Shown here: one piece after another, positions 3,001 to 6,000 of the stretch
How the letters are laid out: each line of letters opens with the position of its first letter
Position numbering within the stretch: position 1 is the stretch's first letter
Assembly: GCF_001447785.1 (NCBI RefSeq)
Contig: NW_015162557.1
Coordinates: 127,886 to 186,765, forward strand
Direction of reading: 5' to 3'
Length of the DNA: 58,880 bases
Origin: Gekko japonicus
Taxonomy: Eukaryota
Program-made: the position numbers

Positions 3001-6000
3001 CCAAATGCTTTCGTTTGCTTAACATTATTTGGCAGAGAATTCGACACTTTAATGATGGTCTGAGCCTGGCTGGGGCGATGGCACGCATGCCCACAGAGAG
3101 GGCTCTGAGTGCCACCTCTGGCACCTGAGCCATAGGCACCACCACTGATTTAGGGCAACCCCTCACGGGGTTTTCAAGAGAAGAGAGGAGCAGAGGTGGT
3201 TGGCCGTTGCCTGCCTCTGCGTAGCAACCCTGGACTTCCTTGGTGGTCTCCCATCCAAGTACTAACCAAGGCTGAGCCTGCTTAGCTTCAGAGATCTGAC
3301 GAGATCTGGCTCGGCCGGGCCATCCAGGTCAGGGGGCAGACTTTTGCAGCGAGAATCACAGTCAACACATTGGCAAATATTATATGAATACTACAAGCAT
3401 CGGCATGCGCTTGGTCTCTGTCCAGTGAATACCCCTAACGGGATGTTTAGCCTGGGAAAGAGAAGGCTTAGAGGGGACACGATTTCAGTCTTCAAGTATC
3501 TGAAGGGCTGTCATGTAGAAGATGGAGCAGATCTATTCTCTCTTGCTCCGGATTGGATTGCAAGACTGGATCTAATGGGTGGGAATTACAAGGGAGTCGT
3601 TACCGGCTAAATATCAGGAGAGACTTCCTGACTGTAAGAGTGGTTGAGCAGTGGAACAGACTGCCTCGGGAGGTGGTGGATGCTCCTTCGCTGGACATTT
3701 TCAAGCGGAGGCTGGACGATCATCTTTCGGGTATGTCGTAGGTATGTAGGGCTATCTTTTGGCGATGCTCCTGCAGAGTGCAGGGGGGTTGGACTAGATG
3801 ACCTTCAAGGTCCCTTCCAACTCTAACATTCTATGAGTCTATGATTCCCACAGACCTGGGGTATGAGGGCAGGACTTCACAACTCCAAGCTGACTTCCTT
3901 CCCTGTTCCTTCCTTCCGTCCCTTCTTTTTGGCTCCCCGGTTCTCGAAGGTGTCTGACTCTCTTCCGTTCTCTTAACAGGGATATCGGCCCACACCAGAC
4001 GGTGAAGATGCGCCAGACGTTCACGCCGCTACGCCCGGGCCGTCGCCAGCTGGTTGCCAGCATGGACAGCCCTCAGCTCTCCCAGGTCCACGGAGTGCTG
4101 ACGATGGATGTGGCGCCAGGACCTGCGCGGGGCCCGGGAGGTTCCCCTGCCCCCAATCGGGCTTCCCCTGTCCTTTCCCGAGACTCTCCCGGTAGGCAGC
4201 CCACCAACCGTGGCAGCCCCGCGAACACCCGTGCTTCTCCGGCGCGGGGCTCCCCGGCTCGCCAGCCAGATCCCCGTGGGTCCCCCAATGCCCGCGGGTC
4301 CCCCAACGCCCATGGGTCCCCCAACGCCCGTGGGTCACCAGTTGTTGGCAGAAGAGACCGGACTGGGCGCCCTGTCTGAGCCAGACTCTAGTAGTTGCTA
4401 TGTACTGTATATCTACAATGCCAGCAGAAGTGGGGGGCAAGAGGGGGGGAAGGGGGGCCACCCGCCTGAGCCACAGAACCACAGCACTGCAGTGGGGGGA
4501 AGGGCGGGGGGGGAAACTGGATTTCCCCGTCCCCGTCCCAGGGTATCTCCTGTGTGCCCACCGAGAAAGACCCCCTACCATCTCCCTTTCTGCCTTATTT
4601 ACATTAGCCCTGAGGTTGCCACCGGCTCGCTATCCCCCAAACACGCTCACATCCCTAATCTCACTTGCTGTATGTATTCATCCGCTCACACCACCCAAAG
4701 TAACTGTAATCCACCCTTTGTTTGCTGTATATATTCATCTGCTCGCGCCACCCAACGTCACTGTAATCCACCCTTTCCGTTCCCATAAAGAGCCACCAGT
4801 TCTTCCCAGAGTCCCTTTGCACCCATCCTCCCCTTGTGTTCACTTACCACTTATACCCCCTTCCCTTGCTTGCGCTTTCCTTGCGTCAAAGCATCCGTCC
4901 TGCCCATTTTCTCACCCTCGAGCCTTCAAGGGTCCCCTAAAACGCTGGCTCTGGTTGCACGCCACCCCTTTCCCCAACACGCTCGGTTCTGCACCCCACT
5001 GATACAGGCAGCTCCCCAAGGCCCCCCTGGGTTACTCGCTTTTCCGTTTTGTTCTGAAGCCCTTCCGAGGTGACCGCAAAGAGCCGCTCCTGAGCCCAGC
5101 CCTCCGGGTCTGTCCCAAACAGATCGGCTGGAATTTACCTCCCCTGTACAGGAAACGGGACTGCATAACCTGGCCCTCCCCGACCAGCTTTGGGGAGGTG
5201 AATTTGTATAGGTTAGGATGGGGTTTCTTTCAGGGATCCCCACAAGTAATGCACGCGACGGAAGGAAATGGAGAAAGGATAAGCCGCTGTTAGGGTATAT
5301 TGGCCGGCCGCTGCCGGATCGCCTTTGCTCACGTATTTAAACGCTTGCACTTTCCAAAGAGCCGAGGCCCTTCTTCGACTTGCACTGAAGCTGAGCTATT
5401 AAAGGGGTTATATGGGCAAGGGGGTGGGGGCGAGTGGGAGGTGGGGAACACACCGCACTGTTTGCCAAGCCAGGGGACACCCCTGACGATGTACGAGAAG
5501 AGACCGTTTTTACATTTAAAGGACAAGCAAATGAACAACGCCAAGCCAAACGCTGTGATATGTTTGTTTTTTCATGCAAATGCAGATATTTATTTGAAAA
5601 TAAATTGTTTTTAACTCAGAACGTGTCCTGTCTCCCTGCTGCGTGGACTTACTTTGTTGCAAGACCTTTGGGCAGCTTTGAGTGTAGAAGCCCAATCAGA
5701 CTGATGAGCAATAGTAACGCCGTTTTGACAGGCTTTGCAAAGTTGCTGGCGGCGGCTGGCCTTTGCCCAGCTTTGTGAACTCCAATAAGTAAAAGGTAAA
5801 GGTTTCCCTTGCTCGAAAGCCAGTCGAATCCGACTCTAGGGTGCGGTGCTCATCTCTGTTTCCAAGGCGAAGAACCAGCGCTGTCCGAAGACGTTTCCGT
5901 GGTTATGTGGCCAGCATGACTAAACACCGAGGCGCACAGAACATTGTTACCTTCCCACCCAAGCAGTACCTATTTATATACTTGCAATTTCTTGCTTTCG

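What the first reader, a model, noticed from the sequence alone, without database searches (positions are those of the whole stretch)
4122..4379. TGM1 carries an 86-aa Arg/Ser-Pro repeat C-terminal tail
Seen: after the conserved DVAP, the protein continues for 86 residues with ten x-[G/A/D]-S-P motifs, eight of them RxSP (RASP, RDSP, RGSP...). Part is an 18-bp tandem repeat. Known: human TGM1 has only a ~30-residue tail here, with no such repeat. Inference: a lineage-specific, basic, disordered and phospho-switchable (proline-directed kinase) module on the cornification cross-linker, possibly relevant to squamate scale, shedding or setal epidermis.
Basis: partly seen in the sequence, partly recalled or inferred. 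Interest (0 to 1): 0.65.

Follow-up and report, generated by a model that had tools for sequence, protein, structure and literature searches.

The report
Reptile TGM1 Arg-Ser-Pro repeat tail
The skin cross-linking enzyme TGM1 of this gecko does end in a long, basic, repeat-rich tail full of Arg-x-Ser-Pro motifs, but the same tail is present in lizards, snakes, turtles and an alligator, so it is an old reptile feature rather than a gecko or squamate novelty.

Summary
Observation confirmed. Window 3980-4379 (+) is the last coding exon of TGM1. After the barrel-2 ending DVAP it encodes 86 residues with 10 x-[G/A/D]-S-P motifs, 8 of them RxSP (0 of 100,000 shuffles reach this), plus an 18-bp tandem repeat at 4273-4336.

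Interpretation partly supported. The tail is not lineage-specific. One model per species from 48 non-avian reptiles (29 squamates including the window, 18 turtles, 1 alligator) all carry a tail of 45-147 aa with 4-13 SP, net charge +7 to +16 and no lysine. 47 of 48 share an [S/T]PxRQP block, and the ends are conserved (GRPV or GRAG). Seven mammals (26-31 aa) and the emu (36 aa) have no SP. Only two extra RGSPNA units (+12 aa) are specific to this gecko lineage.

The motif is under constraint. In 10 close, gapless species pairs the R/S/P motif positions differ at 3 of 198 sites, against 60 of 598 spacer sites.

Best reading: a conserved, disordered, lysine-free polybasic tail whose R-x-S-P-x-R sites fit proline-directed kinases, acting as a charge switch. 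Phosphorylation is untested. Mammals instead have a 41-50 aa Arg/Ser-rich insert at the N-terminus, which holds the serines reported as human phosphorylation sites. I found no paper describing the tail.

The parts
1426..1564 (+). Penultimate coding exon of TGM1 (first half of beta-barrel 2). It is preceded by ...tctcag and followed by gtgagt, and it ends in the first two bases of a Gly codon.
   Evidence: Sequence read. tblastn of named TGM1 proteins. Pfam Transglut_C, profile positions 8-50, 22.2 bits, below the 26.6 cut-off because only part of the domain is present. 43 of 46 residues identical to Euleptes and to Heteronotia TGM1.
3980..4379 (+). Last coding exon of TGM1, stop codon included. 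The acceptor is ...ctcttaacag|G.
   Evidence: Searched on its own: all 12 hits are named TGM K (TGM1), the best being Euleptes europaea at 78% identity and 100% coverage.
3980..4118 (+). End of beta-barrel 2 (DIGPHQ...MDVAP).
   Evidence: Pfam Transglut_C, profile positions 62-105 of 106, on exon residues 2-45. PDB 2xzz_A, the TGM1 barrel, aligns to exon residues 1-45 and ends at DVA.
4119..4376 (+). 86-residue Arg/Ser/Pro/Gly/Ala-rich tail with 10 SP motifs (8 RxSP), net charge +12 and no Lys.
   Evidence: No Pfam family covers it. The equivalent tail of the Euleptes orthologue has pLDDT 23-27 and no secondary structure.
4251..4277 (+). Conserved block S-P-A-R-Q-P-D-P-R inside the tail.
   Evidence: [S/T]PxRQP is present in 47 of 48 non-avian reptile tails.
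4273..4336 (+). 18-bp tandem repeat (units [24 protein letters not shown]). The window has two more units than the three other geckos.
   Evidence: TRF. Unit codons. The gecko tails each show two such units.
4359..4376 (+). Conserved C-terminal end R-T-G-R-P-V.
   Evidence: The last four residues are GRPV in 23 of 29 squamates, in the alligator and in Pelusios, and GRAG in 16 of 18 turtles. The alligator ends ...GRAGRPV.
4377..4379 (+). TGA stop codon.
9969..12760 (+). Context: TINF2 exons downstream on the same strand, the conserved neighbour of TGM1.
   Evidence: tblastn with the TINF2 part of the fused alligator model at 9978-10448, 10757-10858 and 12638-12760. Pfam TINF2_N at 46.4 bits, cut-off 29.4, on 9969-10277. 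The figure legend of PMC8535770 names TINF2 as the synteny marker of TGM1.

Best explanation
Window 3980-4379 is the last coding exon of the TGM1 orthologue of a gecko. After the final strand of beta-barrel 2 the protein continues as an 86-residue, intrinsically disordered, lysine-free, strongly basic tail built from R-x-S-P(-x-R) units.

The tail is an ancestral feature of non-avian reptile TGM1. It evolves by in-frame gain and loss of short repeat units, while selection keeps four things: the R/S/P motif positions, the positive charge, an SPxRQP(D/N)P block and the C-terminal GR(A/P)(G/V) end.

Inferred mechanism, not shown: the serines are multi-site targets of proline-directed kinases. They fit the CDK-type S-P-x-R pattern and the DYRK-type pattern of Arg at -2 to -4 with Pro at +1. 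Phosphorylation would swing the tail from about +12 towards negative. That would switch an electrostatic contact, most plausibly with the acidic inner face of the plasma membrane where TGM1 is lipid-anchored, or with acidic partners, and so time or position cross-linking during cornification.

The absence of lysine would keep the flexible tail from acting as an amine donor for the enzyme's own reaction. The tail may do the job that the N-terminal Arg/Ser-rich insert does in mammals.
For: SHOWN
- Identity as TGM1.
- Motif counts beyond chance: 0 of 100,000 shuffles reach them.
- Ser and Pro of the motif use several codons (Ser TCC x6, TCT x2, AGC, TCA; Pro CCT, CCC, CCG, CCA). The motif is therefore kept at the amino-acid level and is not just copied DNA.
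- Tail GC is 72.5% but GC3 is only 64%, against 80% in the barrel part of the same exon. Composition is set by codon positions 1 and 2.
- 48 of 48 non-avian reptile species (one model each) have a tail of 45-147 aa with 4-13 SP, net charge +7 to +16, and K in 0 of 3,934 tail residues against 3.9% K in the rest of the proteins.
- 47 of 48 carry [S/T]PxRQP, and the ends are conserved.
- Over the 374 SP sites, R is at -2 in 312 of 373, A at +2 in 281, and R at +3 in 212.
- In 10 gapless close species pairs, motif positions differ at 3 of 198 against 60 of 598 for other tail positions (Fisher p = 2.5e-5). This holds although 12 of the window's 15 Arg codons are CpG-containing CGN.
- In the AlphaFold2 model of the Euleptes orthologue the barrels have pLDDT 70-92, the last strand is 746-755, and the tail 759-830 has pLDDT 23-27 and no secondary structure.
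- Between the conserved DWGP and [IV]REGML anchors, 44 of 44 anchored sauropsid models have 13-14 aa. 5 of 5 anchored mammals have 41-50 aa with 7-11 R, 5-10 S and no K.
- In the 817-aa monkey orthologue, positions 82, 85 and 92 are serines in that insert. Passages of PMC9866252 list S24, S82, S85 and S92 as human TGM1 phosphorylation sites.
- DYRK preference for Pro at +1 and Arg at -2 to -4: passages of PMC3677093.

INFERRED: phosphorylation, the charge switch, the membrane contact and avoidance of self-cross-linking. The CDK consensus S/T-P-x-K/R is textbook knowledge that I recall.
Against: - I saw no transcript, proteomic or phosphoproteomic evidence. All orthologues are computed gene models.
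- The emu (36 aa, 8 Arg, 0 SP) and mammals manage without SP motifs, so the module is dispensable in some lineages.
- Advanced snakes have replaced the middle of the tail with Ala/Asn/Thr repeats and keep only 4-7 SP.
- Rhineura has six to seven RDSAAP units in which Ser is not followed by Pro.
- Both Pseudonaja models stop after 36 tail residues.
- Unit number varies 45-147 aa between species, and between models of the same species (Chelonia 68 vs 53, Chelonoidis 60 vs 45). Exact length is therefore not constrained.
- Base composition alone predicts only 0.6 Lys per tail in the window, so the lack of lysine is weaker evidence than it looks.
- The species pairs share branches, so its p-value is approximate.
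- The AlphaFold2 model is poor overall (mean pLDDT 53; the catalytic core also falls below 50), so low pLDDT alone is not specific to the tail.
Confidence: 0.5

Rival explanations
1. Constitutive polybasic anchor. The tail binds acidic lipids or acidic substrates simply through its Arg charge. Ser-Pro serves only as a flexible, extended spacer and is not regulated by phosphorylation.
For: Net charge is +7 to +16 in 48 of 48 reptile tails. The emu keeps 8 Arg in 36 residues although it has no SP, so basic charge is more widely kept than the SP motif. There is no lysine in any tail.
Against: Ser and Pro of the motif are as conserved as the Arg (2 of 71, 1 of 71 and 0 of 56 differences, against 60 of 598 elsewhere). 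A mere spacer would not be expected to show that. The motif context R-x-S-P-x-R matches known kinase preferences.
Confidence: 0.25
2. Neutral low-complexity expansion. A slippage-prone coding minisatellite is tolerated in a disordered C-terminus and has no function of its own.
For: The window has an 18-bp tandem array. Other lineages have different unit types, of 5, 6, 7 and 10 residues. Length ranges from 45 to 147 aa and differs between models of one species. Mammals and the emu lack the repeats.
Against: - Alignable blocks and the C-terminal end are kept between squamates, turtles and alligator.
- Motif positions change about seven times less often than spacers.
- GC3 is lower than overall GC, so composition is not driven by mutational GC pressure.
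- 47 of 47 other species keep the frame through to a homologous end.
Confidence: 0.12
3. Self-attachment handle. The conserved Gln of the RQP blocks is a glutamine donor through which TGM1 cross-links itself into the cornified envelope.
For: Gln is kept in the SPxRQP block in 47 of 48 tails. Emydura carries five such blocks.
Against: 103 of 127 tail Gln residues are followed directly by Pro. As I recall, this context is disfavoured by transglutaminase 2; I did not test it for TGM1. The tail has no Lys acceptor.
Confidence: 0.05
4. One reading: a squamate- or gecko-specific adaptation tied to scales, shedding or setae.
For: The window has two more RGSPNA units than the three other geckos sampled.
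Against: 18 turtles and an alligator carry the same kind of tail, with the same conserved blocks.
Confidence: 0.03
5. Not translated. The open frame is a by-product of GC-rich sequence, and the real transcript stops or splices earlier.
For: The other two + frames and the minus-strand frames are also open across the region. One alligator model splices out of the tail into TINF2.
Against: Only the TGM1 frame gives a product that is conserved across reptiles through to a shared C-terminal end. The alternative frames match no Pfam family. The full-length alligator model reads the whole tail.
Confidence: 0.03

Closest known systems
Mammalian TGM1 (keratinocyte transglutaminase)
   Same: It is the orthologous gene. 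The barrel-2 sequence up to DVAP is shared (PDB 2xzz_A aligns to exon residues 1-45). TINF2 is the neighbour in both. Both proteins also carry a lysine-free Arg/Ser-rich disordered segment.
   Different: Mammals have only 26-31 residues after the barrel, with no SP and a net charge of -3 to +1. Their Arg/Ser-rich segment lies at the N-terminus, next to the lipid anchor: 41-50 aa against 13-14 aa in sauropsids. It is built of R-G-S and S-R-x-P units rather than R-x-S-P.
TGM1 of other non-avian reptiles (public RefSeq and UniProt models)
   Same: The tail architecture, the conserved blocks and the C-terminal ending are the same. The nearest are the geckos Heteronotia (barrel part 43 of 44 identical), Euleptes and Eublepharis.
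   Different: The window has four RGSPNx units where the other geckos have two. It is not identical to any protein returned.
Multi-site proline-directed kinase substrates in disordered regions (CDK S/T-P-x-K/R; DYRK with Arg at -2 to -4 and Pro at +1)
   Same: The motif grammar is A-R-[G/A]-S-P-A-R. The region is predicted disordered. There are many sites per chain.
   Different: No phosphorylation has been shown, and membership cannot be tested with these tools.
Neurofilament KSP-repeat tails and histone H1 SPKK tails (recalled, not tested)
   Same: These are long basic tails made of repeated Ser-Pro units that are phosphorylated at many sites and change charge.
   Different: Those use Lys. 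This tail has none, and SP[KR][KR] occurs 0 times in the window's tail (read from the sequence).
SR/RS domains of splicing factors
   Same: Arg- and Ser-rich low-complexity sequence.
   Different: The window's tail has no RS dipeptide and only one SR (read from the sequence), so the defining dipeptide repeat is absent.

Membership tests
TGM1 orthologue (protein-glutamine gamma-glutamyltransferase K) | C-terminal beta-barrel 2 (Transglut_C) homologous to TGM1 | tested here: met
   Pfam Transglut_C on exon 15 residues 2-45 (24.4 bits) and on exon 14 (22.2 bits). Each is a partial domain below the whole-domain cut-off of 26.6. PDB 2xzz_A, E = 2.4e-14.
TGM1 orthologue (protein-glutamine gamma-glutamyltransferase K) | Closest named relatives are TGM1 rather than other transglutaminases | tested here: met
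   All 12 hits of the last exon are named TGM K, or are a hypothetical protein that UniProt calls TGM K. The best has 78% identity over 100% of the exon.
TGM1 orthologue (protein-glutamine gamma-glutamyltransferase K) | Conserved neighbourhood (TINF2 next to the 3' end) | tested here: met
   TINF2_N at 46.4 bits on 9969-10277 (+). tblastn. A weak GMP-reductase/IMPDH match at 26673-27350 (-), 18.6 bits, is below the cut-off.
TGM1 orthologue (protein-glutamine gamma-glutamyltransferase K) | Catalytic Cys-His-Asp core and N-terminal palmitoylated Cys cluster | not testable with these tools
   The window starts inside the intron before the penultimate coding exon, so the rest of the gene lies outside it.
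Multi-site proline-directed kinase substrate | Clustered S/T-P sites with kinase-preferred flanks | tested here: met
   10 SP in 86 residues, 8 with Arg at -2 and 3 with S-P-x-R. Across 48 tails Arg is at -2 in 312 of 373 sites and at +3 in 212.
Multi-site proline-directed kinase substrate | Sites lie in an accessible, disordered region | tested here: inconclusive
   The tail of the Euleptes orthologue has pLDDT 23-27 and no secondary structure, next to barrels at 70-92. The model as a whole is poor (mean pLDDT 53).
Multi-site proline-directed kinase substrate | Serines are phosphorylated in vivo | not testable with these tools
   No phosphoproteomic data could be reached.
Coding tandem repeat (minisatellite) | Head-to-tail copies with a period that is a multiple of three | tested here: met
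   Period 18, 3.6 copies, 89% matches at 4273-4336. Among the four copies there are 4 synonymous differences and 1 replacement in the shared codons (read).
SR/RS domain | Runs of Arg-Ser dipeptides | tested here: not met
   0 RS and 1 SR dipeptide in the 86 residues (sequence printed).
SPKK-type DNA-binding tail | S/T-P-[KR]-[KR] units | tested here: not met
   None of the 10 SP motifs is followed by two basic residues (sequence printed).

The most novel reading that the evidence does not exclude
TGM1 always needs a lysine-free, Arg/Ser-rich, phosphorylatable disordered module close to the membrane. Amniotes solved this in two ways. Non-avian reptiles carry it as a C-terminal R-x-S-P tail that has been kept under purifying selection since the common ancestor of lizards, turtles and crocodilians. 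Mammals carry it as an N-terminal insert that holds S82, S85 and S92. The two modules would then be functional counterparts that control when and where the cornified envelope is cross-linked. Reptile cornification would be gated by proline-directed kinases rather than by the phorbol-ester-responsive phosphorylation named in the title of the 1990 mammalian paper.
Probability: 0.2. Interest if true: 0.6.

Novelty: new variant of a known kind. Interest (0 to 1): 0.4.

Why it matters
TGM1 is the essential cross-linker of the skin barrier. How its activity is timed is still unclear even in mammals: PMC10700374 says the relevance of its phosphorylation 'has remained uncertain' (passage seen).

A conserved, clade-wide tail with many kinase-type sites gives comparative skin biology a concrete, testable handle on the regulation of cornification in reptiles. 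The reciprocal N-terminal insert in mammals suggests a general requirement.

The practical lesson for this scan is that the feature is old and shared, and it says nothing specific about gecko setae or squamate shedding. The repeats also explain why several public gene models of this exon are frame-shifted, truncated or fused to TINF2.

Tried and rejected
- ESM Atlas look-alikes of the tail: no usable hit.
- Pfam on the other two + frames and three minus-strand frames across the tail: no family. Rfam finds nothing in the exon.
- Homology between the mammalian N-terminal insert and the reptile tail. Smith-Waterman scores against 2,000 shuffles were mixed: 0 of 2,000 for the monkey insert against the two gecko tails, but 4 to 481 of 2,000 for the other 18 pairs. 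I read this as shared motif grammar, not shown homology.
- AlphaFold2 of the Euleptes orthologue with 17 aligned sequences modelled the catalytic core poorly (mean pLDDT 53). I used it only for the barrel/tail boundary.
- The primary paper on TGM1 phosphorylation (Chakravarty, Rong and Rice 1990) is not held. I saw it only as a reference entry in PMC10700374.
- Pfam on the ten longest or most relevant ORFs elsewhere in the window: 8 of 10 had no family.
- Not done:
  - No dN/dS, because no reptile nucleotide sequences can be reached with these tools.
  - No search of the unnamed 50%-identity protein representatives.
  - Amphibians, tuatara, neognath birds and other crocodilians therefore stayed unchecked. 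The three homologue searches returned none of them.
  - No complex-prediction job was run.
  - The two TGM1 exons were searched separately and were never joined.
- A script error (a regular expression missing the window's Met for Leu) was corrected.
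Full report
WHAT IS IN THE SEQUENCE. On the + strand, a polypyrimidine tract and AG at 3978-3979 precede an exon that runs from 3980 to the TGA at 4377-4379. Read from 3981 it gives [12 protein letters not shown]...[17 protein letters not shown] followed by 86 further residues.

The tail holds ten x-[G/A/D]-S-P motifs, eight of them RxSP, and 10 of its 11 serines are followed by proline. In 100,000 shuffles of the 86 residues the mean was 2.17 SP (maximum 9) and 0.38 RxSP (maximum 4). No shuffle reached the observed 10 and 8, and this held after collapsing the tandem array. 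Tandem Repeats Finder reports an 18-bp repeat at 4273-4336 with 3.6 copies and 89% matches. Its units read [24 protein letters not shown].

WHICH GENE. The operators ask for spliced models to be searched exon by exon, so I searched the last exon alone and never joined it to the exon before it.
- Pfam places the end of Transglut_C (profile 62-105 of 106) on exon residues 2-45 and nothing on the tail.
- The only solved structure matched is 2xzz_A, the TGM1 beta-barrel. It aligns to residues 1-45 and ends at DVA.
- All 12 database hits of the exon are named TGM K (TGM1). The best is the gecko Euleptes europaea, at 78% identity over the whole exon.
- tblastn of named TGM1 proteins finds one more exon in the window, at 1426-1564, flanked by ...tctcag and gtgagt. 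It also carries Transglut_C.
- Downstream on the same strand lies TINF2 (TINF2_N at 46.4 bits on 9969-10277; tblastn). The legend of Figure 1 of PMC8535770 uses TINF2 as the synteny marker of TGM1.
- A weak GMP-reductase-like ORF lies further on, on the minus strand.

The catalytic core and the N-terminal anchor lie outside the window. The window is not human. Its nearest relatives are geckos: against Heteronotia the barrel part is 43 of 44 identical, and exon 14 is 43 of 46 identical to both Euleptes and Heteronotia. The three N runs were left alone.

THE TAIL IS NOT LINEAGE-SPECIFIC. The first homologue search already showed RxSP-rich tails in 11 of 11 full-length squamate and turtle models. 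Two further searches and one cluster look-up added many named models.

Taking one model per species, I tabulated 29 squamates (including the window), 18 turtles and Alligator mississippiensis. Lengths below are counted from the residue after the barrel's final D-V.
- All 48 have a tail of 45-147 residues with 4-13 SP and a net charge of +7 to +16.
- Together they hold 628 Arg and no Lys in 3,934 residues, against 3.9% Lys in the rest of the same proteins.
- 47 of 48 contain an [S/T]PxRQP block.
- The last four residues are GRPV in 23 of 29 squamates, GRAG in 16 of 18 turtles, and ...GRAGRPV in the alligator.
- MAFFT aligns three shared blocks: G-P-x-x-S-P-A-P-x-R-x-S-P after the barrel, S-P-[A/S]-R-Q-P-[D/N]-P-R-G-S-P, and the C-terminal end.

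By contrast:
- Seven non-human mammals have 26-31 residues, no SP and a net charge of -3 to +1.
- The emu has 36 residues with 8 Arg and no SP.
- A cyprinid TGM1-like protein ends a few residues after the barrel.

I did not use the human protein.

The three other geckos each have two RGSPNx units where the window has four. The only part particular to the window's lineage is a 36-bp, 12-residue expansion.

ROWS LEFT OUT OF THE TABLE. These were second models or isoforms of a species, partial models without the last exon, and the following:
- the fused alligator TGM1-TINF2 model P0013;
- the partial A. sinensis model;
- Rhea (flagged low quality, 7 residues after the D-V);
- Lerista and Pantherophis (no last exon in the model);
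- Carettochelys (the tail is visible but my anchor pattern missed it);
- both Pseudonaja models, which stop after 36 tail residues with 4 SP;
- two unnamed entries;
- mammals that I did not fetch.

Two other models, Pogona P0109 and Chrysemys P0014, read part of the tail in another frame. The other listed models of the same species (P0003, P0079) are in frame. I take the former for errors in a repeat that is hard to assemble, but I cannot prove it.

IS IT CONSTRAINED? Five observations say yes.
1. Alignable blocks and a shared C-terminal end survive between lizards, turtles and an alligator. As I recall, these lineages have been separate for well over 200 million years.
2. In the 10 species pairs whose tails have equal length and differ at no more than 25% of positions, the motif positions (Arg at -2, Ser, Pro) differ at 3 of 198. 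Other tail positions differ at 60 of 598 (Fisher p = 2.5e-5; some pairs share branches, so the value is approximate). This holds although 12 of the window's 15 Arg codons are CpG-containing CGN.
3. Within the window, the Ser-Pro pairs use four Ser codons, including AGC, and all four Pro codons. The four 18-bp units differ by four synonymous changes and one replacement in their shared codons.
4. The tail's GC of 72.5% comes from codon positions 1 and 2. Its GC3 is 64%, below the 80% of the barrel part of the same exon. The composition is therefore an amino-acid property, not mutational GC pressure.
5. 47 of 47 other species keep the frame.

Against this:
- Unit number is free (45-147 residues) and differs even between models of one species: Chelonia 68 against 53, Chelonoidis 60 against 45.
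- Advanced snakes replaced the middle of the tail by Ala/Asn/Thr repeats and keep 4-7 SP.
- Rhineura has a run of RDSAAP units without Ser-Pro.
- Birds and mammals lack the motif.

Selection thus acts on motif grammar, charge and a few blocks, not on length.

STRUCTURE. The window holds only two exons, so I folded the Euleptes orthologue with 17 aligned TGM1 sequences. The model is poor for the catalytic core (mean pLDDT 53). The two barrels are well defined (pLDDT 70-92) and the last strand is 746-755. Residues 759-830 have pLDDT 23-27 and no secondary structure. With 20% Pro, 17% Arg, 15% Gly and 13% Ser, disorder is the expected state. I rate this feature as supported but not proven.

HOW IT MOST LIKELY WORKS. 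Over the 374 SP sites of the 48 tails, Arg is at -2 in 312 of 373, Ala at +2 in 281 and Arg at +3 in 212. The consensus is A-R-[G/A]-S-P-A-R.
- S-P-x-R is the textbook CDK-type site (recalled).
- Pro at +1 with Arg at -2 to -4 is the preference described for DYRK kinases in passages of PMC3677093.

Ten phosphates would turn a tail of net +12 to a net negative charge. My best-supported explanation is a multi-site, proline-directed phospho-switch on a polybasic disordered tail. TGM1 is lipid-anchored at the inner face of the plasma membrane (passages of PMC13073648 and PMC10700374). The most plausible target of the charge is therefore the acidic membrane surface or acidic partners.

The complete absence of lysine fits an enzyme that would otherwise use a flexible Lys-bearing tail as amine donor. 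Base composition alone, however, predicts only 0.6 Lys per tail in the window, so this point is suggestive only. 103 of the 127 tail Gln are followed directly by Pro, a context I recall as poor for transglutaminase 2. All of this paragraph beyond the counts is inference. Nothing here shows phosphorylation.

A RECIPROCAL PATTERN WITH MAMMALS. I compared the segment between the conserved DWGP just after the Cys cluster and the [I/V]REGML start of the beta-sandwich.
- 44 of 44 anchored sauropsid models have 13-14 residues (23 squamates, 18 turtles, 2 alligators, the emu). Two squamate models could not be anchored.
- 5 of 5 anchored mammals have 41-50 residues with 7-11 Arg, 5-10 Ser and no Lys. 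One mammal could not be anchored.

In the 817-residue monkey orthologue, positions 82, 85 and 92 are serines in this insert, in the context TRRPGS-RGS-DSRQPVS-RGSG. PMC9866252 lists S24, S82, S85 and S92 as the phosphorylation sites of human TGM1 (passages). The original work is cited in PMC10700374 as Chakravarty et al. 1990 (reference entry seen; the paper itself is not held).

Local alignment of the insert with reptile tails beat all 2,000 shuffles for the monkey against the two gecko tails. For the other 18 pairs, 4 to 481 of 2,000 shuffles did as well. I therefore claim a similar grammar (R-G-S, S-R-Q-P), not homology. The idea that the two modules are functional counterparts is my most novel reading, at about 0.2 probability.

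COMPARISON WITH WHAT IS KNOWN, AND NOVELTY. The gene is an ordinary TGM1 orthologue, and the tails are already present in public gene models. I found no description of the tail in print.
- Six full-text searches returned nothing on it.
- The main texts of the two most relevant papers contain no occurrence of 'C-termin', 'carboxy' or 'tail'. These are PMC8535770 on chicken TGM1 and PMC11152450 on transglutaminase evolution.
- The sturgeon TGM1 paper PMC8926185 compares only the N-terminal Cys cluster across vertebrates.

Supplementary alignments of PMC11152450 may show the tail, but supplements were closed. The tail is not an RS domain (0 RS dipeptides) and not an SPKK tail (no SP followed by two basic residues), as read from the sequence. 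I file it as a new variant of a known kind: a clade-wide regulatory-looking extension of a well-known enzyme.

VERDICT.
- The 'lineage-specific' interpretation and the link to squamate skin novelties are not supported.
- The 'basic, disordered, phospho-switchable' part is plausible and now has comparative support, but it remains untested.

I put about 0.9 on a real, translated, conserved and constrained tail, and about 0.35-0.4 on the phospho-switch mechanism. The stated 0.5 is for the combined statement. Interest is moderate (0.4).

Noticed in passing
window 3219-3336 (-) and 35993-36099 (+): Full-length matches to the 5S rRNA model (57.2 and 41.6 bits). The first lies in the intron between the last two TGM1 exons. 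They are probably 5S-derived SINE copies rather than rRNA genes.
   Followed up: no
window 10884-11561 (+): Tandem array with a period of 137 bp, 4.9 copies and 96% matches. Each unit starts with a tRNA-Ala-like sequence (anticodons GGC or AGC). The array lies in an intron of TINF2. It looks like a tandemly amplified tRNA-derived SINE.
   Followed up: partly
window 21445-21516, 28055-28126, 41787-41849, 42472-42543 (+): Further scattered tRNA-like matches (33.9-56.9 bits), probably SINE heads.
   Followed up: no
window 26673-27350 (-): An ORF with a weak IMPDH/GMP-reductase match (18.6 bits, below the 25.6 cut-off). I recall GMPR2 as a neighbour of TINF2 in the human genome, which would fit, but I did not check this.
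   Followed up: no
window 4665-4776 (+): 57-bp tandem repeat, 2 copies, 89% matches, about 300 bp after the TGM1 stop, presumably in the 3' UTR. The first AATAAA or ATTAAA on the + strand comes about 1.0 kb after the stop.
   Followed up: no
Public TGM1 models P0098/P0099 (Chelonia mydas), P0008/P0087 (Chelonoidis): Isoform models of one species differ by exactly three SPARG units (68 vs 53 and 60 vs 45 tail residues). This may be repeat-number polymorphism or gapped transcript alignments rather than true splicing.
   Followed up: no
Public TGM1 models of colubroid and viperid snakes (e.g. P0009, P0062, P0061, P0065-P0067, P0071): The middle of the tail is replaced by Ala-Asn-Thr-Asn repeats and only 4-7 SP remain. 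Pythons and boas keep 7-8. This may be a snake-specific remodelling of the module.
   Followed up: no
Public TGM1 model P0052 (Rhineura floridana): The longest tail, at 147 residues, with a run of A-R-D-S-A-A-P units in which Ser is not followed by Pro.
   Followed up: no
Public models P0013 (alligator), P0014 (Chrysemys), P0109 (Pogona), P0068/P0074 (Pseudonaja): The last exon of TGM1 is often mis-modelled. One model splices from inside the tail into TINF2, two read the tail out of frame, and two stop after 36 tail residues.
   Followed up: partly
N-terminal region of TGM1 orthologues (outside the window): Mammals carry a 41-50 residue Arg/Ser/Gly-rich, lysine-free insert between DWGP and IREGML. 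All sauropsids sampled have 13-14 residues there. This is the reverse of the pattern at the C-terminus.
   Followed up: yes
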